64,000 bases of DNA from assembly GCA_023819145.1 (NCBI GenBank), contig JAMWCW010000001.1, positions 66,400 to 130,399 of the forward strand. Direction: 5' to 3'. How positions within the stretch are numbered: position 1 is the stretch's first letter; every line of letters starts with the position of its first letter. Positions 2,211 through 34,142 of this stretch are shown here, one piece after another. The notes beneath the pieces were generated by a model that saw only the letters and a list, made by a program, of their open reading frames with translations, was not told the origin of the DNA and did not search any database. The position numbers and the translations under genes are program-made. Origin of the DNA: Candidatus Omnitrophota bacterium. GTDB lineage: Bacteria > Omnitrophota > Gorgyraeia > DTHP01.

Positions 2211-2263
2211 TTTTCTTCCCTGAGAAAATATAACACCTAATTTACCTAGCGTCAAGGGACACT

Positions 2264-2292
2264 TGACGATTTGCAAAAAGCGTGTTATATTT
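2264..2292 (+). promoter_or_regulatory. Sigma70-like promoter TTGACG-N17-TATATT; first of two identical 29-nt copies
   Basis: cTTGACGatttgcaaaaagcgtgtTATATt. Identical 29-mer recurs at 3915-3943. The palindrome CGTCAAGggacaCTTGACG overlaps the -35. Confidence 0.5.
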
Positions 2293-2399
2293 TAAACGAA
2301 ACTAAAATTCCTTTATCTAAGGATGCGGTAACTAATCTTTCCTTTAAGCTTAAATTTAGAACCCCTATAATTAAATACATAAAGAAGGTGTTTATACAA

Positions 2400-3785
2400 A
2401 TGTTATTGGTGAGGTTATTTTTGCTATTTGTTTTTGGTTTAGATGTATTATTTAATTTTTCTTCTTATTTATCTTGCCATAATTTTCTCTACGCATTACG
2501 CAGAAGTAAGCAAAGTAATATTTTTAGCTTAGGAATTGGTTCAAAGAAGACTATCGATGATTTGGGAGATATTTATGGCAAGGTTGTTTTAGTGAGGGTA
2601 GATTTTAATGTGCCTATTAAAGATGGACTTGTTTTAGACACCTATCGCTTAGAAAGAGCAAAAGAGACAATAGAAAATTTAACTAAGCGTGGTGCGAAGG
2701 TAGTTTTGATGTTTCATTTAGGCCGACCCAAAGGAAAGATTGTTCAAGAATATAGGATAGAACCGGTAATTGCTAAGTTTAGTGAAATGTTAGGCAAAGA
2801 GATTAAAATAGGTCCAGATGCCGTAGTAGGTGATGAATTAAGGGAGTTGGTTAGCAAGATGAATCCGGGGGAGGTAATTTCTTTACAGAATTTGCGTTTT
2901 CATTCCGGAGAAGAAAAACAAGATGAAGCCTTTGCGGAGGCAATTCTTAATTACACGAGGGCAGAGATTTACGTAAATGATGGGTCTGCCAATATGCACG
3001 GTAGCGACCAAGTGTCTGAAACTATCTTACCTCTCTTAATGCAGAGAAGAGGGCTTCCGACGGTTTTAGGAAAATTGGTGGTAGAAGAGTTTGGAATTCT
3101 GGAAAATTTTGTTAAGGGTGGTATAGATTTAGCCTTGTTTGGCGGTTCAAAATTTGAAAAGATTGAATCTATAAAGAATTTAGTGTCTAGTGGAAGAGTA
3201 AAAACTGTTTTTCTCTCGGGAGCAATGGCACACTTGTTCCTTAAAGCCAAAGGATTTGAATTAGGAAAGTCTAAAATTGACACAGAACTCGTGAGTGAAG
3301 CAGAAGAGATACTTGCTTTAGCCGAAAAGCGTGGCGTACGCATTGTGCTTCCTGTGGATGTGCGTTTAGATGATGGAAGTTTATTAGTTATTGCTGATAA
3401 AAAAGGAAATAAAATTGCTGATATACCGCCAGAAAGAGCCATTTGGGATATTGGAATTATTACTTTAAAAATGCTCAAAGACATGATGGAGATGATTCCT
3501 TCTTCAGGAAGAATAATTAGTAACGGCACCGCAGGATGGTTAGAAAAAGGTTTTCCTTTTGACTGGGGAACAAATGATATAAATAGAATGTTGATAAATC
3601 ATCCTGCAGAAAAATTAATTTTAGGAGGAGAAGGAGCTTTTGCTGCTTTGAATATGTTGGCTGAATATCAGGGAACACCTGAGCAGTTTAATATGACCAT
3701 TCTTACTGCAGGAGGAGCAGCACTTGCTTATCTAGCAGAAAGAGCGGATGAGCTTACGCCTTTTAATTATATTGATACGAAGTGA
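2400..3785 (+). CDS. pgk: Phosphoglycerate kinase-like protein with ~95-aa N-terminal extension (TM helix plus ALRRSKQSN)
   Basis: VLVRVDFNVP...GAKVVLMFHLGRPKG matches the PGK N-domain signature (RVDFNVP / HLGRP). C-terminal GGGA-like TAGGAALAYL. RBS AGAAGGTG 10 nt before the ATG at 2400. The six-frame ORF start at 2271 lies inside the promoter, so 2400 is preferred. Confidence 0.65.
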   Translation: MLLVRLFLLFVFGLDVLFNFSSYLSCHNFLYALRRSKQSNIFSLGIGSKKTIDDLGDIYGKVVLVRVDFNVPIKDGLVLDTYRLERAKETIENLTKRGAKVVLMFHLGRPKGKIVQEYRIEPVIAKFSEMLGKEIKIGPDAVVGDELRELVSKMNPGEVISLQNLRFHSGEEKQDEAFAEAILNYTRAEIYVNDGSANMHGSDQVSETILPLLMQRRGLPTVLGKLVVEEFGILENFVKGGIDLALFGGSKFEKIESIKNLVSSGRVKTVFLSGAMAHLFLKAKGFELGKSKIDTELVSEAEEILALAEKRGVRIVLPVDVRLDDGSLLVIADKKGNKIADIPPERAIWDIGIITLKMLKDMMEMIPSSGRIISNGTAGWLEKGFPFDWGTNDINRMLINHPAEKLILGGEGAFAALNMLAEYQGTPEQFNMTILTAGGAALAYLAERADELTPFNYIDTK

Positions 3786-3915
3786 TAATGAGTCGTAATC
3801 CGTAAACCGTAATCGGTAATTTGTAATAAAAAATAACGAACTCAACGAAATAACCAACTAAACGAAAATAACGAAATTAACGAACACAACGAACAAAATA
3901 TCATCAACGCAGCCC

Positions 3916-3944
3916 TTGACGATTTGCAAAAAGCGTGTTATATC
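3916..3944 (+). promoter_or_regulatory. Second copy of the identical TTGACG-N17-TATATc promoter
   Basis: cttgacgatttgcaaaaagcgtgttatat is identical to 2263-2291. Lies upstream of the small ORF at 4016 and of the GAPDH-fusion gene. Confidence 0.5.
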
Positions 3945-4015
3945 TTAATGTAGAAGAGAGGTACTTTATAAAACTTAAATTTCAATATCATAAATTAACT
4001 TTCTAGAATAAAAAG

Positions 4016-4201
4016 ATGAGAGATTTTAATTATTTCTTTCTATTGGAAAGTGAAAAAATAGTTTCTCATTCTAAAGGGTATCAAGCCCTGATTAAAGCAT
4101 TGGAGCATGGTTTTGAAGGATTAGACAAGGAAATAGCCAAGAGGTTAATAAATTCCTATTTATATTTAAATGAAAGGAGGGAATGTAATGAAAGGTTCTA
4201 A
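4016..4201 (+). CDS. Small hypothetical ORF (61 aa) between the promoter and the GAPDH-like gene
   Basis: ORF only; weak RBS; overlaps the start of the next gene. Could be a leader peptide or spurious. Confidence 0.2.
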   Translation: MRDFNYFFLLESEKIVSHSKGYQALIKALEHGFEGLDKEIAKRLINSYLYLNERRECNERF

Positions 4202-6611: not shown

Positions 6612-6644
6612 AAAATAAGATTTATTCTCGCAAAAGGAGGAATT

Positions 6645-8798
6645 ATGCGGATAAGCAATTTAGTAAGAGTTATTTTTATTTTCTTTTCTGTTCAATTTTC
6701 TCTCTTTTCTGGTGAACTCCGGAATGGAGTAATCTTAATTTCTCGTCGGGCTAAGAATCAAGAATTTTTAATAGTGTCTCCCTTTCAAAAATTACTCTCT
6801 CTTTTAGGAAACGGATTACAAACTGGTCTTAACTTTGATGAAGGGATAGAACTTTTTCGCCAGATAGAGAGATTGCGCTTGTCTGTGGAGGAAACAGAAG
6901 ATTTTTATTCTTTTATAGCGAATAATCTTGTTGATTTTTTGGTAGTTTCAGAAAGGTCAGGAATTAGAATTGACCTTCTTGATATTCGCGACCTTTTCTC
7001 GGCAGCACAGAACTATGCTTTGGGGATAAGAAGAGATGAGTTGGGATTAAATAGGGGAGGAAGGGCTCTTTTAAATAAGATGTTAAGTGTTAAAGATATA
7101 AAAATCATTGGTGAACAGCTTTTAGAAGCACTTGACTCCTCTTTTAACAATGGCAGGATTGATAAAGCTAATTACCTGAAATATAGAGAGCGTCTTGAAA
7201 TTATTACTCTGATGGCTGGACTCTGGGCAACTTCACCAGTGAGTTCTAAGAGTATGCTTAGAGCTTTAGAAGGAGGAAATACCGCCATTATGGCCGCAAA
7301 TACCCAGATGTCGGTAAGTATTCCCGGACTTATGCTTGCTTCTTTAGAATTTGGAGCTCCCCTTATGTTTGAATCGGCAATGAGTGAAGTCAACCTGCAA
7401 GACCCAAATGACCCTGCGAAAATAGCTATTGGTTATATCGGTAGAAATCCCCAGGAATTTGCGGAAGTAGTAAGATACTATGCCTTTCTTTTAGGTTACG
7501 ACCTGCCTTATGCCATTCATGCTGACCACACCACAGTAAGTAAAGATACAGCGGAGGCAATTGACTATGCTAAAAGACTTAATCAAGCACAATTATCTGC
7601 AGGATATACCTCTTTTGCTATTGATCCTTCATCTCTTCCCGCAGTGAGAGAAGATACCCAGTTAAAAACGCTCAATGCCATGGAGGTGGAAGAGTTCTTG
7701 AGGCTTGGTTTTGATGAAAGTTTAGCAAAAACTTTAGCCGCGCGAGAATTTAAAAAATTAAAAGAACTCTCTTCTATTGAAGGAATAGACGAGAGAAAGA
7801 TCAATATTCTGATGGACTATATTGAGTCACAGATTCTAGTTGCAGTTTTGAATAAAATGGGGTATGAAGATTTGATGAGCATTCCACGTATGCCTGGAAC
7901 TATTGCCCGTGCCATTGTAGAGAACGGTCCGTTTACTTCCTTGGAAGAGCTAAAAGAAATTGATGGGCTGGGTGATGATGATATTTTCTATATTGAGGGA
8001 ATAGACAATGCGGTTCTTTTGTTTGATTATTTAAAGGCTTACTTAGATTTAAAGCGGATTATTGAGATAAATATAGAATTAGCAAAATTTATTCCTGAAG
8101 AGTTTGGTTTAGAGGTGGAAGTTGGTCATATTGGAAGAGTTGATCCACTGACGGGAGAGGCGGTGATGACTACTCCTTTAGAAGCGGTAGTTTTGATTGA
8201 AGCATTACAAAGATTTGGGATAAAACCACAGCTTTTGGCGGTAAATAATGGAACAAAACACGGAATTGTCTTCATTGGGGGTAAAGAGGTTCCTACGACT
8301 GTAGATGTAAAAAGAACCGATGAAATAGCGAGCGCTATAAGACCTTTAGGAGTTTCCCTTGCTCAGCACGGAACTACTGGTACGCCTTTTGAGGTTATAA
8401 AAGATCAACTTGCGGGAAATATCCTTAAAGCCAATGTAGGAACCGAGTGGCGGAGAACTGTTTTAAGAAGCATGCCTTTGGATTTATTCTATAGAATGGT
8501 AGAGTGGACAGTGGAAGAAGAAAAAAGGAAAGCTCCAGAGAAATTTTCTGGACTTCTTCCGGTAAGAAGTTATACACGTGAACAACTGCTAAGTTCAGAG
8601 TGTCCTTACTATGCTTTAATTATTGATCCTATAAAACGGGCAATAGGAGTTTTTAGAGCTGAAATTGATAATATTTCTGGTGAGGATTTGGATTTAATTG
8701 TAGAAACAACCCGCGAAGTAGCAAGAGAGTATTTTACTGCTTTTAATGCTCTAGAGAAAGTTTGGAAGATTGTAAAGTATTTGGGTTGGGGATGGTGA
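6645..8798 (+). CDS. Class II fructose/tagatose-bisphosphate aldolase-like protein with inserted tandem helix-hairpin-helix motifs and N-terminal TM plus ISRRAKNQ leader
   Basis: AIHADHTT (DH metal-binding motif), EVEVGHIGRVD (EaElG-like) and SLAQHGTTGTP...ILKANVGTEWRR (LHGgSG...KiNidT-like) fit the class II aldolase TIM barrel. SIEGIDERKINIL and IPRMPGTIARAIVENGPFTSLEELKEIDGLG are HhH-like. Confidence 0.5.
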   Translation: MRISNLVRVIFIFFSVQFSLFSGELRNGVILISRRAKNQEFLIVSPFQKLLSLLGNGLQTGLNFDEGIELFRQIERLRLSVEETEDFYSFIANNLVDFLVVSERSGIRIDLLDIRDLFSAAQNYALGIRRDELGLNRGGRALLNKMLSVKDIKIIGEQLLEALDSSFNNGRIDKANYLKYRERLEIITLMAGLWATSPVSSKSMLRALEGGNTAIMAANTQMSVSIPGLMLASLEFGAPLMFESAMSEVNLQDPNDPAKIAIGYIGRNPQEFAEVVRYYAFLLGYDLPYAIHADHTTVSKDTAEAIDYAKRLNQAQLSAGYTSFAIDPSSLPAVREDTQLKTLNAMEVEEFLRLGFDESLAKTLAAREFKKLKELSSIEGIDERKINILMDYIESQILVAVLNKMGYEDLMSIPRMPGTIARAIVENGPFTSLEELKEIDGLGDDDIFYIEGIDNAVLLFDYLKAYLDLKRIIEINIELAKFIPEEFGLEVEVGHIGRVDPLTGEAVMTTPLEAVVLIEALQRFGIKPQLLAVNNGTKHGIVFIGGKEVPTTVDVKRTDEIASAIRPLGVSLAQHGTTGTPFEVIKDQLAGNILKANVGTEWRRTVLRSMPLDLFYRMVEWTVEEEKRKAPEKFSGLLPVRSYTREQLLSSECPYYALIIDPIKRAIGVFRAEIDNISGEDLDLIVETTREVAREYFTAFNALEKVWKIVKYLGWGW

Positions 8799-8868
8799 GA
8801 TCTTATAATTCTTCTTAGTAATTGAAGTTGTCTAAAAATTATTTGCTACTAAAGGAGGGATTGTAGAG

Positions 8869-10407
8869 ATGAGAAAAATATTTTTAGTTCTTTCTTTTTG
8901 TTTATTGTTTTTTCTATTTTGTCCTTTAAATTATAATTCTCAAGAATATTTTTCTTTCCGTAGAATTCATCGTAATCTTTTAATCACTGACCCACAACTT
9001 TTAGATGAGGCATATTTGTTGAATATCCTCCATATTGGGGGTGGATTGGGTTCCATTGTAGTCGATGCTCGTAGCGGAGAGCATATTGCGAGATTGAGTA
9101 TCTCTGGGAAAAGAATTATTAGTCGTGATGGTTTTAGCGTGCAGGATATTTTAAAAGGGATAGAAGAAGGGCGATTCGTTACTGTTACTCATCAAGAATT
9201 AGTTCAGAGGGCTCTTGAACATAGAGAGAATTGTGTGCTTGTCTTTACAGGTGGTGGAGATTCTGCGGGTATAAATGCAGTAATCAGTTCTGCAGTCCAA
9301 GGATTAAAGAAATTGAAACCAGAAATGACTGTTTTGGGTTTAAGAAACGCAGGAGCCAGTCTGGTGGTTTCTCCGGAAGAATTTCCCGAACATCTTGTTC
9401 TGATAGATGAATTATACGCTGAAGATGTTGCGGAACAGGGCAGTACTTTTTTGGGCTCTTCAAGGTATAATCCTTTTAAGAAAGCAGAAGATATGGCAAA
9501 GACTCTGGAAAACATAAAGGGTTTTGGAGCGTGGATTTCTACAGGAGGAGATGATAATCTTAAGGTTGCCCAGAGATTATCCCAGGAAAATCCGGAAATG
9601 GTGGTTTTGGCTACTGCCAAAACCATCGATGGTGATGTGATGGTTAATGGAAGAGGAGTGCAATGTTTGGGATTTGATTCAGCAGCGAAGATGTATCGGG
9701 ACGAAATTTATTCTATTGCCCAGAGTGCCAAAGCTCATGGAGAGAAAGAACAACCGCTGGTAATTGTGGTTGAGGTGTTTGGAAGGGATTCCGGAAGGTT
9801 GGCTTTTGAATCGGCGCGCCCCGATGACTTTTCCGGATTGAATGCGGAGGAAATTCGGAGACAAGTTGACCTTGCAGGAACGATAATGATCGTTGTTCCT
9901 GAGGAGAAACATGCTGACGGGACTCAAGCGACCATTGATGAATTAGTAAAAAGGGCAGAGGAAATTATTGCCCGCGAAAATGCAGTGGTAATAGTTGTTG
10001 CTGAAGGTTATCGGCCAGGAGATATGCCGGATATTGTAAAAACTTCTTCTAAAACAGATGCCTACGGACACGTTCAACTTGCCGGCATTGGTTCCGCGCT
10101 TGTTCCGGTTTTAGAAAAAAGAATTCCTAAAGCAAAAGTAAGAACCTCTCTTCTTAACTATGAAGGAAGGGGAACGCTTCCCAGCGAATACGATGTTACA
10201 TTGGGTTATAAGATTGGTTGGGAAATGGCTGAACTAATAGCCCAAGGAGTGACGGGTGGAAGGTTTGTAGGATATTTCAATGAAATGGATGCCCGTTTTG
10301 AACTGCCGGTGGTGCTGGAATTGGTGAATATCTCTAACCAGAATACCTTAGAGCTTTATCCCCGTCAAATATTAGAGAGGAATAGGGTTTTGGTGCTTGA
10401 TAGGTAA
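8869..10407 (+). CDS. pfp: Phosphofructokinase-family protein, predicted PPi-dependent, with ~115-aa N-terminal extension (TM plus FSFRRIHRN)
   Basis: VLVFTGGGDSAGINAV (GGDxxGxNA), ISTGGDDNLKVA (GGDD rather than GGDG) and AKTIDGDV (K-TIDxD) are PFK active-site motifs. Asp at the 104-equivalent and Lys at the 124-equivalent follow the published rule for PPi-PFK. RBS AAGGAGGG. Confidence 0.6.
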   Translation: MRKIFLVLSFCLLFFLFCPLNYNSQEYFSFRRIHRNLLITDPQLLDEAYLLNILHIGGGLGSIVVDARSGEHIARLSISGKRIISRDGFSVQDILKGIEEGRFVTVTHQELVQRALEHRENCVLVFTGGGDSAGINAVISSAVQGLKKLKPEMTVLGLRNAGASLVVSPEEFPEHLVLIDELYAEDVAEQGSTFLGSSRYNPFKKAEDMAKTLENIKGFGAWISTGGDDNLKVAQRLSQENPEMVVLATAKTIDGDVMVNGRGVQCLGFDSAAKMYRDEIYSIAQSAKAHGEKEQPLVIVVEVFGRDSGRLAFESARPDDFSGLNAEEIRRQVDLAGTIMIVVPEEKHADGTQATIDELVKRAEEIIARENAVVIVVAEGYRPGDMPDIVKTSSKTDAYGHVQLAGIGSALVPVLEKRIPKAKVRTSLLNYEGRGTLPSEYDVTLGYKIGWEMAELIAQGVTGGRFVGYFNEMDARFELPVVLELVNISNQNTLELYPRQILERNRVLVLDR

Positions 10408-10461
10408 AGAGATAACTTATTTTATTTGGCATTTTTAAAACAAATAGGTTTCTGAGTATTT

Positions 10462-11253
10462 GTGCGATATTTAATAATAAGAAAAATAGTAATTATTTTA
10501 TTTTTTTTGGCTCTTTCTCAGACAATAGTATTTTCTCCGGTGTATGCTCGCAGAGTGAAGTGGTTTGGGGGTGAGTTATCACTTCTTCAAGAAAATAATT
10601 TTTTTGTAGGGCTGGAAGATAGTTTGAAAGAGTTTGTTATTAAATTCGAGGATGCCAGAGTAATAAAATCTATCTCTCAGCCAGAGCCATTAGAAGGGGA
10701 TGCCCCTTTTGATTCCGGAGAAAAGATAGTTACCTATAAAATTGAGGTTTTGACAGATAAAGGGGTTAGCAGTTTAGTAGTGAAATTGGTAAGTAGCAGA
10801 GAAGCAAAAAATTTCTTAACTGCTTCTTTAAGGGGTGTTTCTCCAGGTCCAGCGATTTTTGTAGAACAGGGGTGGGAGAACAGAAATGGCGTTAGCGAAG
10901 GTTATTTAATCTATCGGTTCTTTGAAGGAGTGAAGTTAAGCGAAATTTGTAATCAGGAACAGGCAATTGATATCCTAAAGAATAATCTTTGGATTATTGA
11001 AGAATTAGGTATTAAACTTGCGAATTTAAAGAAAGCAGGGGTAAAATATAGAGATTTTTTATATTATAATACGCTTATTGATTTAGAAAAGAGAGCTCTT
11101 GTGATTGTTGATTACGGTGATAGGCATTGCGCTGATCCCTTTATTCAGGTAAGAGATTGGTGGTTGCCTTTGATGTTCAATACTGAACCCGAGATATTAG
11201 AGAAAGTTATTAGTTTATTTGTAGAAGTTTATCAGAGAGAATTAAATAATTAA
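10462..11253 (+). CDS. Hypothetical protein with TM plus YARRVKW leader; possible small kinase-like fold
   Basis: GTG start with weak RBS. IVDYGDRHCADPF and VVKLVSS are faintly reminiscent of a kinase-like fold but not diagnostic. Confidence 0.35.
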   Translation: MRYLIIRKIVIILFFLALSQTIVFSPVYARRVKWFGGELSLLQENNFFVGLEDSLKEFVIKFEDARVIKSISQPEPLEGDAPFDSGEKIVTYKIEVLTDKGVSSLVVKLVSSREAKNFLTASLRGVSPGPAIFVEQGWENRNGVSEGYLIYRFFEGVKLSEICNQEQAIDILKNNLWIIEELGIKLANLKKAGVKYRDFLYYNTLIDLEKRALVIVDYGDRHCADPFIQVRDWWLPLMFNTEPEILEKVISLFVEVYQRELNN

Positions 11254-11325
11254 TGAGATTTGCTACTCTTAAAGAAATTATCTTGCGGCGAGAAATGATC
11301 ACAATTTTAAGGGGGAGGAAGTGAT

Positions 11326-13551
11326 ATGGGTATGAGGAAAATATTCATATTTTGTTTTATTCTCATAAAATTTGCCATCTTTTCATTTTCTTTTAATTTT
11401 TCCTCTTTAGAAATTATTGCGCATCGCAGAACTAAAATTTCTCCTTTAGTAGCAAATCATGAGTCTGTAAGGAAAGTTTTAGTAGATATTTTCTACAGAG
11501 CAGCAGGATTTCAAGGGGCTTTGCGCAGCGGAACAGCACAAGAACGGCGAGATATTTTAAACCAACCTGAGGTAAAGCGCGCTGTTTCTTTGCTCCAATA
11601 TGGTTTGAGTTTAGGAAGTACAACTTTAAGAAATCAAGTGGCTTATCTTGCTGAACGTTTAGGGATAAGCGCGAATCCCGCAGTAAATATTGGAATCTAT
11701 CAGGGAGAAGCCGAAATTTTTGATATTCTGGGAAATATCTTTATGCCTGAGGGAGATGGTTTAGTCTTTTATCAAAAAGGAACTGATAATCCCGAAACTC
11801 TTTTTAAGCCTTTTTTGGCTCGCTATGGAGCCAAAATATTTGAATTTGACCCTTACTTCGTAGAGCGCAATTCTACTCCCTCCTATTCTACAGAATTAAG
11901 CGGTTTTGAAGCGCTGATTTCTTTAGCTATTCAAGAGGGACAAAATCCGCGTTTTATCTATCTTAGCGGAAAAGGTTTAACCGAAGCGCAAGCAAGAAGA
12001 ATTTATGCTTTGGCAGAAACTTACAATCTTATAATTATTGAGGATATTACCAACGCAAACCCTACAGATTATCTACTTTCTGCAAACGATTCTCAAGGGA
12101 GAGTAATTTCCATCGGAAATTTTGACAAGTATTTAGGGGCTGCAAATCCTTTAAGTTATGCCATTGCGGGAGAAGAGATTATGCGTCTTATGGAAATTGC
12201 TATTGGCGGGATAAGTCTTCATCCCAATGCTTTTATTCAGCCGATAGTCTCGGAAATTTTAGCCCAAAACGGTATACCTTTCTCGGTAAATGTTTCCTAT
12301 AAACCCATCACTCTTTCTGAGAGTGTAAAAGCAATTCTTGCTTCAACAGGTGCAGACCAGCGCTTAAAACCCTCCATCATTAGAGAAATTCTTAAAGGGG
12401 CAGTTTCGGATATGGTGCGTATGGGAGGAGGGGTTCCTGCCGAGGAGTTCTTCCCTTATGTGGAAATTGCCCAGATTATAGAAAATATGAGCCCTGAGGA
12501 ATGGGAAAAGGTAATGGCTGGGGACCCGGCGATTAATTTAGAGTTGCGCAGTGTTTTTTGCCGGTGGCTTGAAGAAAGAGGAATAAAAGCTGACCCCCGT
12601 CAGGTTTTGGTAACCAATGGGAGCCAGCAGGGTTTGGATTTATTGGGAAGATGGGTGGGAAAAGAAGGAGTTGTTTTTGCCGAATCTCCTACCTATGTAG
12701 GAATGATTACGGGAGTTGCTCCTTACGGAGGCCTTCCTTATGGTAGAAATATTCGGCATTGGGATTTACGCACACTCACTGGATTAGAGAATTTAGAGAA
12801 AGAAATTGAAGAGAACTATCGAGGTAAAAAAATTGTTTTATATGTTACACCAAACTTTGGTAATCCTCCTTCAGGGAATATGTGGACGATTAGCGAAAGA
12901 AGGAATCTTCTGGCTTTTGCCCAGAGGATGCGCTTAAAGGGATACGATTTGCATATTGTAGAAGATGATCCTTATGGAGAACTAAATTATACTGGTCAAA
13001 GAATTGTAGATATCAAAGAGTTGGATACAAACGGAACAGTAATTTATTTCAACTCCAATTCCAAAGTCTTTTCTCCGGGAATGCGTGTGGGGTACATTGT
13101 GGCTGATGAGAAAATAATTCATGAATTTGCTTCTCTTATGGATGAAGTAGGTTCTTTTGTTCCTACACTCCCCCAACTTATTATTACTAAGTTTATCGAG
13201 ACAGGAGCGATGGATAGACATATTGAATTTTTGATTGGTGAATATTCAAAACGTGCACGGGCAATGGAAGAAGCTTTAGAGGAATTTATGCCTGAAGGTG
13301 TAACCTGGACAAAACCTGAGGGAGGGTTATTTATTACTTTAACTGTTCCCTGGGATATAGATTTTATGGCCATGCTTGAGGAGGCCAAAAATTACGCGAT
13401 TCCCTTTAACTTTGTTCCGGGTATCGCCTTTAGTGTGGATGGCTCAAGTGCTCATAAAATTCGTCTTTGCTTTTCCACAGAGTCTGAAGAAAGAATAACC
13501 TTAGGTATTAAGGCTTTTGCGGAGTTGATAAAAAAACACCTTGGCCAATAG
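11326..13551 (+). CDS. PLP-dependent class I/II aminotransferase fused to ~400-aa N-terminal domain, TM plus AHRRTKISP leader
   Basis: C-terminal half has VLVTNGSQQGLDLL, DDPYGEL and NSNSKVFSPGMRVGYIV (the SxSKxxxxxGxRxG Lys-PLP motif of fold-type I aminotransferases). RBS GGGGGAGG. Confidence 0.6.
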   Translation: MGMRKIFIFCFILIKFAIFSFSFNFSSLEIIAHRRTKISPLVANHESVRKVLVDIFYRAAGFQGALRSGTAQERRDILNQPEVKRAVSLLQYGLSLGSTTLRNQVAYLAERLGISANPAVNIGIYQGEAEIFDILGNIFMPEGDGLVFYQKGTDNPETLFKPFLARYGAKIFEFDPYFVERNSTPSYSTELSGFEALISLAIQEGQNPRFIYLSGKGLTEAQARRIYALAETYNLIIIEDITNANPTDYLLSANDSQGRVISIGNFDKYLGAANPLSYAIAGEEIMRLMEIAIGGISLHPNAFIQPIVSEILAQNGIPFSVNVSYKPITLSESVKAILASTGADQRLKPSIIREILKGAVSDMVRMGGGVPAEEFFPYVEIAQIIENMSPEEWEKVMAGDPAINLELRSVFCRWLEERGIKADPRQVLVTNGSQQGLDLLGRWVGKEGVVFAESPTYVGMITGVAPYGGLPYGRNIRHWDLRTLTGLENLEKEIEENYRGKKIVLYVTPNFGNPPSGNMWTISERRNLLAFAQRMRLKGYDLHIVEDDPYGELNYTGQRIVDIKELDTNGTVIYFNSNSKVFSPGMRVGYIVADEKIIHEFASLMDEVGSFVPTLPQLIITKFIETGAMDRHIEFLIGEYSKRARAMEEALEEFMPEGVTWTKPEGGLFITLTVPWDIDFMAMLEEAKNYAIPFNFVPGIAFSVDGSSAHKIRLCFSTESEERITLGIKAFAELIKKHLGQ

Positions 13552-13608: not shown

Positions 13609-14769
13609 ATGAAGAAATACTTAAGAATTAGAGGGATATTTATTTTAGTAGTATTTGTAGTATTTTTATTTACGCTTTTGATTCCTGTAAAACATTCCTT
13701 GGCTTATCCCAGGAGTTATCCTTATTTAGTTTCTAATTCATTACCAGCTTTTTCCGCGCGAGGGTTTAATGAAGCGCTCTTAGCGCGAGTTTTGCGCGAG
13801 ATTATCATTATCTATAAATTCTTGGCTCAAATCGAAAGGGTTCTTAATGAAAGAGGAGAAAATGATTTTCCATCTTTAGGTAGGGTCATCGGAGACAGAC
13901 CTCAGGAGAGAGAAAATTCCCAAAATACTCCCCCCAAAAGAAGTAATTTAAGGGAAGAACCTGCGGGTAACCGTCATCTAGACCCAGAAAATCCTTCGGC
14001 AAAACTACCAGAAGGGTCATCTTCGTCACCTGCTGGTTCTCTAGGAAAGATAAAGATTGCGATTATTGATATTGACTCTAAGCACGCCGCAGAAGTAAAG
14101 GCGGTAATGGAAGAGACAATTCGGCGTAAGAATCCCGGGGCAAAAGTAGAAATTCGTACCATTATTCTTCCTGGCAAATGGCAAAGGGATGGTTCTAAAG
14201 CGGTGGCTACCAGTGATATTTTAGACGCTTTTGCAGAAGCCAAAGCTTGGGGCGCAAAGGTAATCAATATGAGTATTGGTGCACAAGGAGGTGTAGACGG
14301 TATAGTGCTTAGTGCCTTACGCGACCTTTCTGAAAGTGGCATTCTGGTAGTAGCGGCATCAGGTAATGAAGGTAGTTATGATGCTTGGGGGCAAGCTGGC
14401 CGATATGTCTTATCAGTGGGGGTAAGAGGTGCACCTTATTCCAATACCGCTGATTTATATGTCGATTGGGGAGAGCTTCCACCTGGATTAGAAGGCACAT
14501 CTTTTGCTGCTCCGATTATTGCTGCGGAAGCGGCTTTAGCCTGGTTAGAAAACCCTTCCCTTAACTTGGCAAGTTTGCCTTCTCAATTAGGTTCACGGGA
14601 CACAGTTTATGCCCGGAGTAATCCTCCGCAAAGAAGTTCGCAGGGGTTTCACACTTCGGCAATAGAGTTTGTAAGGCCACCTGTTGTTTTTTATACGCCG
14701 GTGGAAGAAATGCCTTTTTACGAACAGAGTTTTTATTCGCCTGTTGGCTGTTTTCCGTCTTTTTGGTAA
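13609..14769 (+). CDS. Subtilisin-like serine peptidase (S8 family) with N-terminal TM helix
   Basis: VVAASGNEGS (Asn oxyanion region), GTSFAAPIIAAEAALAW (GTSxAAP Ser motif) and AKVINMSIG. RBS AGGGGGG before the ATG at 13609; the six-frame ORF extends to 13579. Confidence 0.6.
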   Translation: MKKYLRIRGIFILVVFVVFLFTLLIPVKHSLAYPRSYPYLVSNSLPAFSARGFNEALLARVLREIIIIYKFLAQIERVLNERGENDFPSLGRVIGDRPQERENSQNTPPKRSNLREEPAGNRHLDPENPSAKLPEGSSSSPAGSLGKIKIAIIDIDSKHAAEVKAVMEETIRRKNPGAKVEIRTIILPGKWQRDGSKAVATSDILDAFAEAKAWGAKVINMSIGAQGGVDGIVLSALRDLSESGILVVAASGNEGSYDAWGQAGRYVLSVGVRGAPYSNTADLYVDWGELPPGLEGTSFAAPIIAAEAALAWLENPSLNLASLPSQLGSRDTVYARSNPPQRSSQGFHTSAIEFVRPPVVFYTPVEEMPFYEQSFYSPVGCFPSFW

Positions 14770-14876
14770 TTTTTGTTTGTTTTCTTCTAAATAAAGGGGA
14801 CACTTACTACCGACTCTTCATTGGTTGTAAGAAAGTAAAAGATATTAAACTTGAATTCCGAGGAGGTATTATATAA

Positions 14877-16064
14877 ATGAAAAATAGTAGAGGAAAGATT
14901 TATGTTATGTTTTTGGGTTTGTTATTTTTCTTTCTTAACTCATTATTATATTTAGACTTATCTGCGGGATGCTCTTTCCGGCGAATCAAAACTCAACCTG
15001 CCAAAGAATCTGCGCTGGTGCTTTTTTTCCACGAATTAGGTAGAGAAGATATTTTTTTAGTGGGAGGAAAAGGGGCAAATTTGGGAGAACTTTCGCATAT
15101 TGCCGGGATAAGCGTTCCCGAGGGGTTTGTAGTTACCACCACCGCTTTTCAAAAATTTTTAGATGCCAACCCTGGATTACAAGATAAAATTATCAGGATT
15201 ATAAATAGTATAGATTGGGATACCCCTTCCAGTATAAACTCTGCTGCGGAAAAGATAAAAGAAGCGGTTTTGCGTGCGAACATGCCGCGAGAGATTATTG
15301 AGATGATTAAAGCAGGTTATGGCCATTTAGAAGAGATCTCCGGAATAAAGGATGTGCCCTGTGCTGTAAGAAGTTCGGGAGTTGCTGAGGATTCTCCTAA
15401 CTTTTCTTGGGCAGGTCAATTCCGCACTGAATTAAATCAGAGGGGAATATATCAGGTTTTAGAGGCGGTTAAATTAATCTGGGCAGAGTTGTATAATCCT
15501 GATGCCCTTACCTATGGACATCAGAATGGTATCGACCCGCGCAAATTTTCTATGGGAGTGGTAATTCAGCGGATGATAAATTCAGAGAAATCAGGAGTGG
15601 CTTTTGGACTGGAGTCCGATACAGGTTTTCGTGCCAATCCCGGAGGAATGGAAGGAGTTTTTTATATTGAAGGGGTTTATGGTTTAGGTGAAGGGATGGT
15701 GCAAAATATTCAAGAACCTGATGGATTTTTGGTAGTAAAGATGCCTAATGGTGAATTTAAAATTATTGAACGCATTTTCGGTTCCAAAAGAGAACAGATA
15801 GTTTATCGGTCTGGAATGAGTGGGACAGAGAAAACTTCGGTTCCCGAAGAATGGCGTCAGAGATGGGTTTTTTCAGAAGCAGAGGTGTTAGAGATTGCTC
15901 GTGCAGTTTTTGCCTTAAATAGCCACTATAATCATCCCCAGGATGTAGAATTTGCCTGGGAAGGAGGAAAACTATACATATTACAATCACGCAATGAGAC
16001 AGTTCATGCAGATAAACCAGTAGATTTAATTGAATGGAGAAAGTTTAGAATTAACCTTAAATGA
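14877..16064 (+). CDS. PEP-utilizing dikinase (PpsA/PPDK family) N-terminal nucleotide-binding domain protein, TM plus SFRRIKTQP leader
   Basis: FLVGGKGANLGELSHIAGISVPEGFVVTTTAFQKF is the PPDK_N / PEP synthase ATP-grasp signature. RBS AGGAGG 10 nt upstream. Confidence 0.65.
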   Translation: MKNSRGKIYVMFLGLLFFFLNSLLYLDLSAGCSFRRIKTQPAKESALVLFFHELGREDIFLVGGKGANLGELSHIAGISVPEGFVVTTTAFQKFLDANPGLQDKIIRIINSIDWDTPSSINSAAEKIKEAVLRANMPREIIEMIKAGYGHLEEISGIKDVPCAVRSSGVAEDSPNFSWAGQFRTELNQRGIYQVLEAVKLIWAELYNPDALTYGHQNGIDPRKFSMGVVIQRMINSEKSGVAFGLESDTGFRANPGGMEGVFYIEGVYGLGEGMVQNIQEPDGFLVVKMPNGEFKIIERIFGSKREQIVYRSGMSGTEKTSVPEEWRQRWVFSEAEVLEIARAVFALNSHYNHPQDVEFAWEGGKLYILQSRNETVHADKPVDLIEWRKFRINLK

Positions 16065-16083
16065 AAAAAGGGGGAGATAAATA

Positions 16084-18471
16084 ATGAAGTGGTTACATGT
16101 TAAAATTTTTTGGAGTATTGCCTTTTTAATTATTGCCAGCCTACTTTATGTTGATAATCTTTTTATGTTTTCTTCTTTAGATTTTATTACAAGAAGAGTA
16201 TTAACTCCTTCTTATACAGATTCTCCTTCGGTTGAGGTTCCCTCCGGTTCTCCTAAAATAATTGCCCGTGGAGAAGGGGTAGGTGCTAAAGGAGCGGGGG
16301 TAGGACGAGTGGTTATCATTGATGAAAATAGTTCCATCCCTATTCGTGAGCAGGCAATGCGTGTGCGCGAAGGAGATGTACTTGTTGCTTATCGCACCGA
16401 TCCTTCTTTGGTGGATGCCATGCGCCGAGCAGGTTTGGTGATTACTGAAATTGGAGGGAAAAATTCTCATGCTGCGATTGTCGCTAGAGAATTTAATTTA
16501 AATGCGGTTATTGGTGTGCCCAATGCTACGCGTATTTTTGCTCAAGGGCAGGTAGTTACTGTTGATGCTGAGCATGGAGTCATTTATGCTGGAGCTTTGC
16601 CGCTTGAAGAAGATAGTGTTTCCTATCGCGTGAGTGAACTTCCGTCTACGAGCCCTGTAAAGATAGGGATACTTTCCTTTGATACTGCTCGGGTGAGAGC
16701 GATGTTTCCTTTGGGTTTGTATTCTGATTTTTACGGTATAGGGCTGATGCGTGCAGAGTTTGCTTTACAAAATATTGGCATCCATCCGTTAGCAATATTG
16801 GATTTTGATAGAGGTACGCTTAGAGATGCAAGGCTACAAACAGAAATTACGCAAAAAATCAAAGGCTATGCGAGTGCGCGAGACTATTACATCTCAAAAC
16901 TTTCTTCTGCAATATTTTCCAATTCGCTTATTCTACATGAGGGGCAAAAGGTTATTTACCGCACCACTGATTTTAAAACCAACGAATATGAAGATATGTT
17001 AGGAGGGGATGTTTACGAGCATAAAGAGCCCAACCCCATGATGGGCAATCGCGGTTTACAGCGAATGATTAGTCCTGAATACCGGGAAGCATTTGATATG
17101 GAACTCGAAGCATTTTTACTTGCCTGGAAAGATAATCCGGGAAAGATTTCTATCATGGTTCCTATGGTACGCACTCCCCAAGACCTTCTGACTTTTCGTC
17201 AAATTCTTGAGGGAAAAATAAGGAGTATGGGGCTCTCGGGTATGCCTGAGGTAGTAATGATGTATGAATTGCCCGCGAATGTTTTTCAGATAGAGGAATT
17301 TATTCACGCCGGTATAAATGGTATTTCCATTGGTTCAAATGACCTGACACAATTTATTCTGGCAGTAGACAGGGACAGTGGTTTATTTAGAGAAGGAGGT
17401 AGAGAAGAATATGATGCCGTAAATAGAGCAGTATTGCGTGCTATCGGCATCGGTATAACTTCTTCTAAAGCCCGCGGTGTAAAAACAGGTATTTGTGGGC
17501 AAGCGCCATCAGACCATCCAGATGTTTATCCTGCAATTCTTACTGCTTTAGGAATAGATTCTATAAGTGTTACTCCCGATGTGTTTCATAAAGTGGTAGA
17601 AGCAGTAGCCCAAGCACAACAAAATCCTTCTTTTGGGATGAGATACCTTTCGGGTTTAGATTTATTTTTAGGCTACGATACCCAGACTAATCCCAAACGA
17701 GAATTAAAGAAGATAATTAGTTCTGATGATATACTTCGGAGTATTGGCATTCATCCTTTAGCCTTACTTGCCTTTGACCGGGGAAGTAGTTTATTGAGTG
17801 ATACGGCGATAAGTAGGCAGATTGTTTCTTTTGCCGGAGAAGAAACTGCAGAACGGGCTTACTTTGACCGTGTATATAGGGCGGTAAAGAATGCTTTACT
17901 TATGGATGGAGAGGTAGTTTATAGAACAGGAAGTTTGCTCAGTACCGATTATAAAACGCTTGTGGGAGGAGATATTTTTGAAAAAGAAGAAGCAAATCCC
18001 TTATTGGGTGCGTTTGGAATGTACCGCCTGCTCAGATATGGTTCAGAAGATGGCGCTTTGAGTATGCGTGATATTTTTAACATAGAGATGGATGCAGTTT
18101 TAAAAGCTGTGCGGGATACCGGTAAAGTTATTCATTTAGAGTTAGATATGGTGCGCACTTTTGGAGAATTACAGGAGGCAGTTTCTGTGATTAATGAGGC
18201 AATACGCCGTACAGGGATTTCTCCAGATAAGGTGAAAATTGGTCTAAATGTTTCTACTCCGGCAAATGTTCTGCTTATTTCTGATTTTATTAACCAAGGG
18301 AGATTAAGTTTTGTGAGTATCGACGAAAAAAGGTTAGCCTGTTATCTTTTGGGGGTGGATTCCTTGAGTATGGTTAGCCCCGAGGCTATTGAACGAGCCC
18401 TATATATACCTCGTCAACTGGTTTATACAGCATTAGCTCAAAAGGGAATCCCTTTAGTTAACTCCCCCTAA
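16084..18471 (+). CDS. PEP-utilizing dikinase central phospho-His domain plus TIM-barrel domain followed by a degenerate second TIM-barrel copy; TM plus ITRRVLTPS leader
   Basis: TEIGGKNSHAAIVAREFNLNAVIGV (PEP-utilizers mobile His domain); MVPMVRTPQDL and GSNDLTQFILAVDRDS (PEP-utilizers_C). A second copy, IGIHPLALLAFDRG...LDMVRTFGEL...SIDEKRLACYLLGVD, has the NDLTQ motif degenerated. RBS GGGGGAG. Confidence 0.65.
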   Translation: MKWLHVKIFWSIAFLIIASLLYVDNLFMFSSLDFITRRVLTPSYTDSPSVEVPSGSPKIIARGEGVGAKGAGVGRVVIIDENSSIPIREQAMRVREGDVLVAYRTDPSLVDAMRRAGLVITEIGGKNSHAAIVAREFNLNAVIGVPNATRIFAQGQVVTVDAEHGVIYAGALPLEEDSVSYRVSELPSTSPVKIGILSFDTARVRAMFPLGLYSDFYGIGLMRAEFALQNIGIHPLAILDFDRGTLRDARLQTEITQKIKGYASARDYYISKLSSAIFSNSLILHEGQKVIYRTTDFKTNEYEDMLGGDVYEHKEPNPMMGNRGLQRMISPEYREAFDMELEAFLLAWKDNPGKISIMVPMVRTPQDLLTFRQILEGKIRSMGLSGMPEVVMMYELPANVFQIEEFIHAGINGISIGSNDLTQFILAVDRDSGLFREGGREEYDAVNRAVLRAIGIGITSSKARGVKTGICGQAPSDHPDVYPAILTALGIDSISVTPDVFHKVVEAVAQAQQNPSFGMRYLSGLDLFLGYDTQTNPKRELKKIISSDDILRSIGIHPLALLAFDRGSSLLSDTAISRQIVSFAGEETAERAYFDRVYRAVKNALLMDGEVVYRTGSLLSTDYKTLVGGDIFEKEEANPLLGAFGMYRLLRYGSEDGALSMRDIFNIEMDAVLKAVRDTGKVIHLELDMVRTFGELQEAVSVINEAIRRTGISPDKVKIGLNVSTPANVLLISDFINQGRLSFVSIDEKRLACYLLGVDSLSMVSPEAIERALYIPRQLVYTALAQKGIPLVNSP

Positions 18472-18486: not shown

Positions 18487-18580
18487 CCCACCTCGTAGGT
18501 GTCCTTTTCACTGTATTGTAAGTTGTTTTTATATGGATACTTATGTGGGACGATTTTGGCCACCTACGAGGTGGGCACGG
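18487..18580. repeat. REP-like inverted-repeat doublet (REPIN-like), copy A
   Basis: ccccacctcgtaggtgtcc ... (~55 nt) ... ggccacctacgaggtgggcacgg. The arms are reverse complements and contain the GTAG tetranucleotide typical of REPs. Same arms recur at 29475-29566 and 30283-30377. Confidence 0.6.
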
Positions 18581-34109: not shown

Positions 34110-34142
34110 GTAAAATCAAAAATTAGCAAAAGGAGGAGAAAA

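What the first reader, a model, noticed from the sequence alone, without database searches (positions are those of the whole stretch)
14877..18471. Split PEP-utilizing dikinase with a degenerate tandem duplicate of the C-terminal TIM barrel
The nucleotide-binding domain (14877-16064) and the phospho-His plus TIM-barrel domains (16084-18471) are separate ORFs. Each has its own RBS and its own copy of the N-terminal leader, so the split looks evolved rather than a frameshift. The second ORF contains a full PEP-utilizers_C domain (MVPMVRTPQDL, GSNDLTQF) followed by a second copy (IGIHPLALLAFDRG...LDMVRTFGEL...) in which NDLTQ is replaced by IDEKRL, probably catalytically dead.
Basis: seen in the sequence. 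Interest (0 to 1): 0.55.

Follow-up and report, generated by a model that had tools for sequence, protein, structure and literature searches.

The report
Split PEP synthase with targeting leaders
An enzyme that is normally one protein (PEP synthase) is encoded here as two adjacent genes, each with its own membrane-targeting leader carrying an Arg-Arg motif that a neighbouring set of sugar-metabolism enzymes also carries, which suggests this uncultured Omnitrophota bacterium sends a glycolysis-like enzyme set to an unusual place.

Summary
ORF A (14877-16064) is only the ATP-grasp domain of a PEP synthase. ORF B (16084-18471) holds the phospho-His swivel domain, an intact PEP/pyruvate barrel and a second, catalytically dead barrel.

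The window comes from an NCBI Omnitrophota MAG, where the two ORFs are annotated as separate proteins. The closest relatives (51-73% identity) are single ~1150-aa proteins with one leader. The window has about 178 extra bases in the inter-domain linker, and they encode a stop, a ribosome-binding site, a start and a new 57-aa leader. All three frames are closed there, so one indel cannot re-join the ORFs. The split is evolved and specific to this lineage.

The dead second barrel is older. It occurs in about 39 protein clusters, including the Desulforudis PEP synthase.

The main new point concerns the leader. A hydrophobic segment followed by [LFA]-R-R-[VI]-K sits on 10 of 11 consecutive genes (PGK, GAPDH, aldolase, PFK, aminotransferase and others) and on their orthologues in other Omnitrophota. 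A subtilase lacking the motif lies in or beside the PEP-synthase loci. Where these proteins go is unresolved: exported, delivered to a host, or tethered to the membrane.

The parts
14860..14866 (+). Shine-Dalgarno site (GAGGAGG) of ORF A
   Evidence: Read directly from the sequence, 10 nt upstream of the ATG.
14877..16064 (+). ORF A, 395 aa: leader plus the ATP-grasp nucleotide-binding domain of a PEP synthase (NCBI MCM8783200.1)
   Evidence: PPDK_N at aa 61-381, E 2.4e-91. Covers NF005057 model positions 2-341 of 798. Identical to the NCBI protein.
14877..14993 (+). Leader of A. Charged tip MKNSRGK, hydrophobic stretch IYVMFLGLLFFFLNSLLYL, spacer DLSAGCSF, then RRIKT (RRIK = 14979-14990)
   Evidence: The orthologous leader in fused P0002 reads LTFRRIKS.
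16038..16254 (+). Lineage-specific segment in the inter-domain linker. It holds the tail of A, TGA (16062-16064), a 19-nt spacer with the Shine-Dalgarno site, the ATG and B's 57-aa leader. It is about 178 nt longer than the 13-codon linker of fused orthologues
   Evidence: No similar DNA elsewhere in the window.
16070..16076 (+). Shine-Dalgarno site (GGGGGAG) of ORF B
   Evidence: Read directly from the sequence, 7 nt upstream of the ATG.
16084..18471 (+). ORF B, 795 aa: leader, phospho-His swivel domain, catalytic barrel and dead barrel (NCBI MCM8783201.1)
   Evidence: AlphaFold2 model has mean pLDDT 88.8 and pTM 0.88.
16084..16206 (+). Leader of B. Charged tip MKWLHVK, hydrophobic stretch IFWSIAFLIIASLLYV, spacer, then RRVL (16192-16203). 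pLDDT is below 50 for aa 1-49
16366..16578 (+). PEP-utilizers mobile (swivel) domain. The phospho-acceptor His129 lies in GGKNSHAAIVARE (codon 16468-16470)
   Evidence: Pfam E 6.8e-22. H129 is invariant in 58 sequences.
16729..17619 (+). Barrel 1, the PEP/pyruvate-binding TIM barrel, with all catalytic residues (R223, R293, R323, E395, N419, D420, C471)
17674..18468 (+). Barrel 2, the degenerate duplicate. It has 7 predicted strands and ends after strand 7. Its pLDDT is about 96-98. Substitutions relative to barrel 1: R223 to S, K298 to L, R323 to F, E395 to S, N419 to K, D420 to R, C471 to S
18489..18511 (+). Weak terminator-like hairpin and T-rich tail after ORF B. A and B probably end an operon here
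   Evidence: The count of such sites in the region is not above the shuffled expectation, so this is only suggestive.
13609..14769 (+). Compact S8 subtilase with an ordinary signal peptide and no RR motif. It is a conserved neighbour of the PEP synthase
   Evidence: Pfam S8. Orthologues lie in the same loci as the PEP synthase (directly downstream in L004, about 2.6 kb downstream in L001), with D, H, N and S invariant.
287..13551 (.). Context: the upstream run of RR-leader genes. In order: methyltransferase, unknown (minus strand), PGK, GAPDH-like, class II aldolase-like with an HhH motif, PFK, unknown, aminotransferase
   Evidence: Orthologous clusters with the same leaders occur in L021 and L023.

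Best explanation
ORFs A and B are the two subunits of a PEP-synthase-family dikinase (pyruvate, water dikinase type) from an uncultured Omnitrophota bacterium. They were made by a lineage-specific gene fission.

Ancestral form. The gene, still intact in relatives, encodes one ~1150-aa chain: leader, ATP-grasp domain, phospho-His swivel domain, catalytic PEP/pyruvate barrel, dead second barrel. In this genome about 178 extra bases in the linker between the ATP-grasp and swivel domains supply a stop, a ribosome-binding site, a start and a second leader of the same class.

How it probably works (inferred). Both genes are co-transcribed and each product is targeted on its own by its leader. At the destination, subunit A transfers phosphate from ATP to His129 of subunit B in trans. 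Two-subunit relatives such as phenylphosphate synthase work this way. The swivel domain then passes the phosphate to pyruvate in barrel 1, or runs the reverse reaction.

Barrel 2 cannot bind Mg2+ or PEP. It is a conserved structural module that packs on barrel 1, possibly standing in for the partner barrel of the usual homodimer.

The leader is a charged tip, a hydrophobic stretch, a polar spacer and then [LFA]RR[VI]K. It marks a conserved set of divergent glycolysis and gluconeogenesis paralogues in or beside which a subtilase gene lies at the PEP-synthase loci. B had to gain such a leader after the fission, which argues that the leader is needed by each polypeptide.

My leading reading is that it is a Sec-type export or anchor signal with an added sorting or processing motif, which puts the enzymes outside the cytoplasm. 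I give this about 50%.

Shown here: the domain content, the residues, the insertion, the motif and the synteny. Inferred: catalysis in trans, the direction of the reaction, the role of barrel 2 and the location.
For: Domain content and split point. The split falls between NF005057 model positions 341 and 353, so no conserved sequence is lost.

Fused orthologues and junction.

All three frames are closed between 16062 and 16087.

PGAP annotates two CDSs.

Even conservation of all domains against fused P0001: 75% (A), 83% (His), 79% (barrel 1) and 62.5% (barrel 2).

Catalytic residues of the swivel domain and barrel 1 are invariant. Those of barrel 2 are lost in all 8 family members examined.

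Barrel 2 is confidently folded and packed: pLDDT about 97, pTM 0.88.

The tandem-barrel architecture occurs in about 39 clusters at 50% identity.

Leader motif. It sits on 10 of 11 consecutive genes plus an asparaginase, against a background of 0.025 hits per 100 aa. It is also on orthologues in L001, L021 and L023, giving 24 leaders with a clear consensus. An automated scan found it in 18 of 57 N-terminally hydrophobic ORFs in Omnitrophota loci and in 0 of 46 elsewhere, p = 7.5e-6.

Ordinary signal peptides and lipoproteins of the same window lack the motif.

The S8 subtilase is in the same locus as the PEP synthase in three lineages.

Precedent for two-subunit PEP-synthase-family enzymes: PMC7500099. 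Stand-alone PPDK_N proteins are also common.
Against: The split is seen in one MAG only, and no reads were available to check it.

No origin for B's leader could be found.

Neither half reaches the curated NCBIfam cut-off. The summed score passes NF005057 (734.6 against 598) but not TIGR01418 (686 against 739.75).

The window protein differs at 84 of 251 columns that are at least 95% conserved in 50 canonical PEP synthases. An example is TDRAISYR changed to NPDALTYG in the ATP-grasp domain. The substrate or nucleotide could therefore differ.

An extracytoplasmic site would lack ATP. The neighbouring RR-leader enzymes (GAPDH, aminotransferase, methyltransferase) would lack their NAD, PLP and SAM there too.

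Positive charges just after a signal peptide hinder Sec export in model bacteria (my own knowledge).

The 'pseudo-dimer' role of barrel 2 could not be tested, because no coordinates were available.
Confidence: 0.62

Rival explanations
1. The leaders are not export signals. They are N-terminal membrane anchors that hold the catalytic domains on the cytoplasmic face. The RR-x-K patch acts as the 'positive-inside' determinant. The cluster would then be a membrane-tethered glycolytic metabolon, and both halves of the split PEP synthase are tethered so that they can find each other.
For: Every RR-leader protein is an enzyme type that depends on cytoplasmic cofactors (ATP, NAD, PLP, SAM, acetyl-CoA). 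The GAPDH-like protein keeps its catalytic Cys and His. Ordinary exported proteins in the window lack the motif. The uncharged stretch is long, median 18 residues.
Against: The N-terminal tips carry a median charge of +2, which disfavours moving the N-terminus across the membrane. A polar spacer of 6-15 aa usually separates the hydrophobic core from RR, and several sites read like A-x-A cleavage sites directly before RR: AEA|RR, TIA|RR, VYA|RR, LSA|RR, CFA|RR. The conserved neighbouring subtilase has a plain signal peptide.
Confidence: 0.3
2. The split is non-functional. It would be either an assembly or sequencing artefact, or a recent disruptive insertion that turned the gene into a pseudogene.
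For: It is a singleton: all four close relatives are fused. The source is a MAG and no read evidence is available.
Against: At least two indels would be needed to re-join the ORFs, and the product would still carry a 57-aa hydrophobic insert that no orthologue has. The inserted DNA encodes a good Shine-Dalgarno site, an ATG and a leader with the family motif at the expected distance, which is unlikely by chance given a background of 0.025 hits per 100 aa. No domain shows decay, and the catalytic residues are intact.
Confidence: 0.07
3. The two products no longer form a PEP synthase. A could serve other His-domain proteins. B could act alone as a PEP-dependent phosphotransferase in the manner of Enzyme I. 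Alternatively, the pair could phosphorylate a substrate other than pyruvate.
For: Many substitutions fall at canonical conserved positions, above all in the ATP-grasp domain. Equivalog cut-offs are not met. Another RR-leader protein carrying only a swivel domain exists in L023. The superfamily is known to change substrate (rifampin, phenol, aniline, PMC7500099).
Against: Those substitutions are shared with the fused orthologues, so they came before the split. Barrel 1 keeps every PEP/pyruvate and Mg2+ ligand. The genes are 19 nt apart, with no promoter-like site between them that stands out from the shuffled background.
Confidence: 0.12

Closest known systems
PEP synthase PpsA (pyruvate, water dikinase, EC 2.7.9.2; NF005057/TIGR01418; structure 2OLS)
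   Same: The same three modules in the same order, with the phospho-His and all PEP/pyruvate-barrel residues present. It is the best sequence and fold match.
   Different: It is split into two genes and each gene has a leader. It carries an extra dead barrel. It scores below the curated cut-offs, and about one third of the canonical highly conserved positions are changed.
Unnamed tandem-barrel PEP synthase subfamily (for example the 1115-aa 'phosphoenolpyruvate synthase' of Candidatus Desulforudis audaxviator, P0007; Omnitrophota P0001-P0004)
   Same: A catalytic barrel followed by a degenerate barrel that lacks the Mg2+ ligands and the Cys. The window protein belongs to this group.
   Different: All members examined are single chains. 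The Desulforudis type has no leader and keeps somewhat more of the canonical residues in barrel 2, such as an Arg at the R223 position and 'INE' at the N419-D420 site.
Phenylphosphate synthase and phenylphosphoamidate synthase (Pps/Pas alpha + beta)
   Same: These are PEP-synthase-family enzymes in which the ATP-binding N-terminal part and the His-carrying part are separate subunits that work in trans (PMC7500099).
   Different: They act on a different substrate and the His subunit has a different substrate domain. They have no leaders and no tandem barrel. Direct homology to them was not tested here.
Enzyme I of the PTS and pyruvate phosphate dikinase
   Same: They share the swivel-domain mechanism and a homologous PEP barrel. 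Their barrels mediate dimerisation, which suggested the pseudo-dimer idea for barrel 2 (fold matches; dimerisation from my own knowledge).
   Different: They have different N-terminal domains and a single barrel per chain.
Twin-arginine (Tat) signal peptides
   Same: A conserved RR followed by a hydrophobic and then a basic residue within an N-terminal targeting region.
   Different: In Tat signals the RR comes before the hydrophobic stretch. Here it comes 8-20 residues after it, with no hydrophobic stretch following. No TAT_signal match was found.
Secreted hexokinases of microsporidia (functional analogy only)
   Same: A normally cytosolic glycolytic enzyme that has gained a signal peptide in a host-dependent organism (PMC6460350 abstract).
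   Different: That case is a eukaryotic parasite and a single enzyme. Here a whole cluster is involved, with an extra RR motif, and the location is unproven.

Membership tests
PEP synthase (PpsA) | N-terminal ATP-grasp nucleotide-binding domain (PPDK_N) | tested here: met
   ORF A aa 61-381, E 2.4e-91, profile positions 3-316 of 328.
PEP synthase (PpsA) | Swivel domain with the phospho-acceptor His in GG-x-x-S/C-HAAI-x-ARE | tested here: met
   GGKNSHAAIVARE in ORF B. H129 is invariant in 58 sequences.
PEP synthase (PpsA) | PEP/pyruvate TIM barrel with the phosphate-binding Args, the Mg2+ ligands (Glu, Asn-Asp) and the catalytic Cys | tested here: met
   R223, R293, R323, E395, N419, D420 and C471 are all present and invariant.
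PEP synthase (PpsA) | All three modules on one polypeptide of about 790 aa | tested here: not met
   There are two ORFs, split at model positions 341/353, plus an extra 265-aa barrel.
PEP synthase (PpsA) | Score at or above the curated NCBIfam equivalog cut-off | tested here: not met
   NF005057: 283.7 and 450.9 against 598. TIGR01418: 267.2 and 418.8 against 739.75. The simple sum passes the first cut-off only.
PEP synthase (PpsA) | Catalyses pyruvate + ATP + H2O to PEP + AMP + Pi | not testable with these tools
   Needs an enzyme assay with both subunits.
Tandem-barrel PEP synthase subfamily (unnamed) | A second PEP-utilizers_C-like domain after the catalytic one, lacking the catalytic residues | tested here: met
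TIM (beta/alpha)8 barrel, applied to copy 2 | Eight parallel strands closing the barrel | tested here: inconclusive
   DSSP on the model lists seven strands (including a short one near aa 652), and the chain ends after the seventh. A short extra strand at 539-541 could complete the barrel.
Two-subunit PEP-synthase-like phosphotransferases (phenylphosphate synthase type) | The ATP-binding part and the His-carrying part are separate subunits | tested here: met
   This shows the same way of working, not membership.
Two-subunit PEP-synthase-like phosphotransferases (phenylphosphate synthase type) | Orthology to Pps/Pas alpha and beta, with an aromatic-substrate domain in place of the pyruvate barrel | not tested
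   ORF B keeps a PpsA-type barrel and its nearest relatives are fused PpsA-like proteins, so membership is unlikely.
Sec-type signal peptide or signal anchor | Positively charged N-terminal tip followed by a hydrophobic core | tested here: met
   In 24 leaders the median tip charge is +2 and the median uncharged run is 18 residues.
Sec-type signal peptide or signal anchor | Signal peptidase I site (small residues at -3 and -1) and cleavage | tested here: inconclusive
   About a third of the leaders have A, S or C at -1 directly before RR. The others, including A (CSF|RR) and B (FIT|RR), have L, F or T there. No predictor or proteomics was available.
Tat signal peptide | The RR motif lies between the charged tip and the hydrophobic core | tested here: not met
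   RR lies after the hydrophobic core. No TAT_signal match at E <= 0.1.
Bacterial lipoprotein signal | Lipobox [LVI][ASTVI][GAS]C at the end of the hydrophobic core | tested here: not met
   A has LSAGC, with Ser at -3, and its orthologues have no Cys. B has none.

The most novel reading that the evidence does not exclude
The leader (hydrophobic stretch followed by [LFA]RR[VI]K) is a previously undescribed sorting signal of Omnitrophota. It would send a dedicated, divergent set of glycolysis and gluconeogenesis enzymes out of the cytoplasm, together with aminotransferase, methyltransferase, acetyltransferase and asparaginase paralogues. The destination would be a metabolically active envelope compartment or an attached host or prey cell. 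The conserved compact subtilase would act as the processing protease at the dibasic site. On this reading the PEP synthase fission is a natural experiment: the downstream half had to acquire the signal anew, which shows that each polypeptide needs it.
Probability: 0.3. Interest if true: 0.85.

Novelty: new variant of a known kind. Interest (0 to 1): 0.6.

Why it matters
On its own, the gene pair is a clean natural example of gene fission at a flexible linker in a swivel-domain enzyme. It predicts that a PEP synthase can work from two chains, and it draws attention to an unannotated tandem-barrel subfamily whose dead barrel may replace the dimer partner.

The larger point is the context. A conserved cluster of cofactor-dependent 'cytoplasmic' enzymes all carry one special leader, in a phylum of ultra-small bacteria that appear to depend on hosts or prey on other cells. 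If these enzymes really leave the cytoplasm, that would change how the metabolism and host exploitation of these organisms are understood. It would also define a new bacterial sorting signal. Both ideas can be tested directly with reporter fusions, N-terminal proteomics and enzyme assays.

Tried and rejected
1. Simple or programmed frameshift. Rejected: all three frames have stops between 16062 and 16087, and fused orthologues lack the 57-aa segment.

2. B's leader copied from another leader in the window. A short-word BLASTN found only chance matches of 16 nt or less.

3. B's leader as a specific duplicate of A's leader. The pair ranks 14th of 78 (z = 3.9). The shared 'SLLYxD' uses different codons, so there is no support (sequence).

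4. Fission by overlapping duplication of the linker (B's 'LDFIT' against the ancestral 'LDLIEW'). Not significant, p > 0.3.

5. A docking domain shared by the cluster proteins. All-against-all BLASTP found nothing at E <= 0.01.

6. Finding more relatives. Two genome-contig scans returned only the P0001 contig. The metagenome scan returned only distant matches at 26-32% identity. Exact look-ups of ORF A and ORF B in the contig index failed.

7. Rfam search of the whole window: no match.

8. Literature. Searches and three Omnitrophota papers gave no description of leader-bearing glycolytic enzymes or of this motif.

9. A solved structure with two barrels. None found; the best query TM-score is 0.47.

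10. The idea that the ATP-grasp domain is exceptionally divergent. Toned down: all three domains keep 64-69% of the canonical conserved columns, and the leaderless Desulforudis protein keeps 71-77%.

Full report
**What is in the sequence**

ORF A (14877-16064, 395 aa) and ORF B (16084-18471, 795 aa) lie 19 nt apart on the + strand. Each follows a good Shine-Dalgarno site: GAGGAGG at 14860-14866 and GGGGGAG at 16070-16076.

Pfam finds only PPDK_N in A (aa 61-381, E 2.4e-91). In B it finds the PEP-utilizers swivel domain (aa 95-165, E 6.8e-22) and PEP-utilizers_C in two stretches (best aa 216-512, E 1.4e-57). Against the NCBIfam PEP synthase model NF005057, A covers positions 2-341 and B covers 353-791. 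The break therefore falls exactly in the linker between the ATP-grasp and swivel domains.

The last 265 aa of B still match PEP-utilizers_C on their own (E 2.3e-10). They align to the first barrel at 33% identity over 215 aa (E 3e-30). As a profile they match residues 517-746 of solved PEP synthase 2OLS (E 3e-32).

**Source and relatives**

A and B are identical to NCBI proteins MCM8783200.1 and MCM8783201.1. These come from a Candidatus Omnitrophota MAG, on a 221-kb contig, and are annotated as two separate CDSs.

The nearest relatives of B are Omnitrophota proteins P0001-P0004 (73, 65, 55 and 51% identity). They are single chains of 1145-1157 aa; P0001 is truncated by its contig end. Each contains the ATP-grasp domain, the swivel domain and both barrels.

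**The split is a lineage-specific fission, not a frameshift**

In the fused proteins the junction reads DLIEW, then 13 residues, then K(I/V)(I/M)ARGEG. In the window these landmarks lie at 16023 and 16255, and the 217 nt between them (16038-16254) compare with 39 nt in the relatives. The extra ~178 nt encode the last residues of A, TGA, the spacer with the Shine-Dalgarno site, the ATG and a 57-aa N-terminal leader of B that matches nothing in the fused proteins.

Between 16062 and 16087 all three frames contain stops. A single indel or a programmed frameshift therefore cannot join the ORFs.

Neither half is decaying. Identity to P0001 is 75% for A, 83% for the swivel domain, 79% for barrel 1 and 62.5% for barrel 2. 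No promoter-like site between A and B stands out from the shuffled background. A weak hairpin follows B, and a strong promoter-like site precedes the next gene. The pair is probably co-transcribed.

I could not find where B's leader came from. There is no similar DNA in the window. It has no special similarity to A's leader (rank 14 of 78). It has no significant similarity to the ancestral linker.

**The second barrel is old and dead**

All eight members examined have it: the window protein, P0001-P0004, P0005, P0006 and the 1115-aa 'phosphoenolpyruvate synthase' of Candidatus Desulforudis audaxviator (P0007). P0006 and P0007 have no leader.

A profile search of 1.84 billion representative proteins found 39 clusters at E <= 1e-30. 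Most of them have two matched stretches. Their lengths are 1100-1500 aa, and a few are giant proteins of 2000-4950 aa.

I mapped copy 1 onto copy 2 across the family:
- Lost: the phosphate-binding Arg residues (R223, R323), Lys298, both Mg2+ ligands (E395 to S/A/T/G; D420 to R/V/L/K), N419 and the catalytic Cys471.
- Kept: framework motifs (HP, GG, E312, NP, R327, R363, P397, N399).

The AlphaFold2 model of B has mean pLDDT 88.8 and pTM 0.88. Barrel 2 scores about 96-98 and shows seven strands, and the chain ends after the seventh. Residues 1-49, the leader, are below 50. No solved structure covers both barrels.

In contrast, His129 and all catalytic residues of barrel 1 are invariant across 58 sequences.

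The whole subfamily is fairly divergent. The window protein keeps 167 of 251 columns that are at least 95% conserved in 50 canonical PEP synthases, and its substitutions are shared with the fused Omnitrophota orthologues.

**The leader is the more interesting feature**

Both leaders consist of a positively charged tip, a hydrophobic stretch, a polar spacer and then RR. A reads SFRRIKTQP and B reads FITRRVLTP.

The same arrangement is found on 10 of the 11 consecutive genes from 287 to 18471. These are a methyltransferase, an unknown protein, PGK, a GAPDH-like protein, a class II aldolase-like protein with an HhH motif, PFK, another unknown protein, an aminotransferase, A and B. An asparaginase at 60162 has it too. 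The background rate of the RR pattern elsewhere in these proteins is 0.025 per 100 aa.

The one exception in the run is a compact S8 subtilase (13609-14769) with a plain signal peptide. Ordinary signal peptides and lipoproteins elsewhere in the window also lack the motif.

The motif is conserved in orthologous clusters of other Omnitrophota:
- L001: a long FBPase, the fused PEP synthase and an unknown protein.
- L021: an unknown protein, GAPDH-like, aldolase-like, glpX-like FBPase and aminotransferase.
- L023: aminotransferase, GAPDH-like, PFK and a protein with only a swivel domain.
- L003 has a variant, R-[IM]-[IV]-R.

Twenty-four leaders give the consensus [LFA]-R-R-[VI]-K-[STG], a median tip charge of +2 and a median uncharged run of 18 residues. 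An automated scan found the pattern in 18 of 57 N-terminally hydrophobic ORFs in Omnitrophota loci and in 0 of 46 in other loci (p = 7.5e-6).

The cluster enzymes are all far below their NCBIfam cut-offs, so they are divergent paralogues. The GAPDH-like domain nevertheless keeps the catalytic SCTTN Cys and the His.

Subtilase orthologues with invariant D, H, N and S lie in the same loci as the PEP synthase in the window, L001 and L004.

I found no description of this cluster or motif in the held literature.

**How it most likely works**

Two-subunit PEP-synthase-family enzymes are established. In phenylphosphate synthase and phenylphosphoamidate synthase, a PpsA-N-like subunit phosphorylates a conserved His on a separate subunit (PMC7500099). 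Stand-alone PPDK_N proteins are common and lie near separate swivel-domain proteins.

I therefore infer the following:
- A phosphorylates His129 of B in trans.
- B passes the phosphate to pyruvate in barrel 1, or runs the reverse reaction.
- Barrel 2 is a structural partner of barrel 1. It may mimic the second barrel of the usual dimer. This is untested.

The fission is informative. The downstream half carries a leader of the same class that no fused relative has at that position, which argues that each polypeptide needs the leader.

**Where the proteins go is not settled**

For export or an outward-facing anchor:
- The tips are positively charged.
- Polar spacers separate the hydrophobic core from RR.
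- Several sites just before RR look like A-x-A cleavage sites.
- The conserved secreted-type subtilase could process a dibasic site.
- The phylum is reported to be host-dependent or predatory.

Against export:
- Every enzyme in the cluster needs cytoplasmic cofactors.
- Basic residues after a signal peptide hinder Sec export in model bacteria (my own knowledge).

I put export or delivery at about 50%, a cytoplasm-facing membrane tether at about 30%, and something else at the rest.

**Comparison with known families, and verdict**

The pair works like PpsA and descends from a tandem-barrel PpsA subfamily. It fails the 'single polypeptide' criterion and the score-cut-off criterion for the equivalog. 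It works like the two-subunit phenylphosphate synthase type but is not a member of that group. The leader is neither a Tat signal nor a lipoprotein signal.

The split and the dead barrel alone are a moderately interesting new variant of a known enzyme. The shared RR-leader on a whole conserved enzyme cluster is what deserves follow-up.

Noticed in passing
window 287-18471 and 60162-61886; also L001, L003, L021, L023: A conserved N-terminal leader (hydrophobic stretch, then [LFA]RR[VI]K) sits on a run of divergent central-metabolism enzymes: PGK, GAPDH-like, aldolase-like, PFK, aminotransferase, methyltransferase and asparaginase. Relatives add FBPases, an acetyltransferase and a HEAT-repeat protein. 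It looks like an undescribed sorting signal.
   Followed up: partly
window 13609-14769; L001 10272-11495; L004 from about 3345: A compact S8 subtilase in which the catalytic Asp and His are only 3-5 residues apart (AIIDID..HAA). It has a plain signal peptide and no RR motif, and it lies in the same locus as the PEP synthase in three lineages. It is a candidate processing protease for the RR leaders.
   Followed up: partly
window 4170-6611, 6645-8798, 11326-13551: The GAPDH-like, aldolase-like and aminotransferase proteins each carry an N-terminal extension of 350-440 aa with no family match, apart from a ComEA/PsbU-like HhH motif at aa 402-445 of the aldolase-like protein. BLASTP finds no similarity between the extensions.
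   Followed up: partly
L023 14332-16614: A 760-aa RR-leader protein next to PFK whose only recognisable part is a C-terminal PEP-utilizers swivel domain (aa 673-740). It may be another phospho-His carrier in the same system.
   Followed up: partly
proteins P0273-P0294, P0334: The tandem catalytic-plus-dead barrel module also occurs deep inside giant proteins of 2000-4950 aa. Another subgroup (P0005, P0255, P0264, P0270, P0271) adds a conserved C-terminal extension of about 300 aa ending in ...ITYEETVDKI.
   Followed up: no
window 19002-23138 and 23396-29443: Two large proteins with signal peptides (1378 and 2015 aa) and no significant family match (one sub-threshold OmpA_membrane hit). Read by eye, the first contains a long internal repeat (about 330 aa, twice) rich in YNxxG/YDxxGR motifs, and its N-terminus repeats KVRTQVIR and RVRTQVIK.
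   Followed up: no
window 29623-30276: An IS200-like Y1 transposase (Pfam Y1_Tnp, E 3.8e-08) lies between the large secreted proteins and an efflux operon.
   Followed up: no
window 31839-42295: A TolC-like outer-membrane factor, a HlyD-type adaptor and an AcrB-family RND pump, followed by a second ~1030-aa ORF that was not scanned. This is a tripartite efflux set, and it indicates a two-membrane envelope.
   Followed up: no
window 44883-49025: Trehalose genes: a GT20 trehalose-6-phosphate synthase and a TreT-type trehalose synthase. These proteins have no leaders.
   Followed up: no
window 18949-18977: The best promoter-like site in the region: TTGACG, 17 nt, TATAAT, with an extended -10 TG. 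It lies just upstream of the 1378-aa gene and suggests a new transcription unit after ORF B.
   Followed up: no
L001 14-722: In the locus of the fused orthologue, the enolase upstream of the FBPase and PEP synthase is called as two short pieces (Enolase_N 68 aa, Enolase_C 158 aa). This may be a frameshifted or degraded copy.
   Followed up: no
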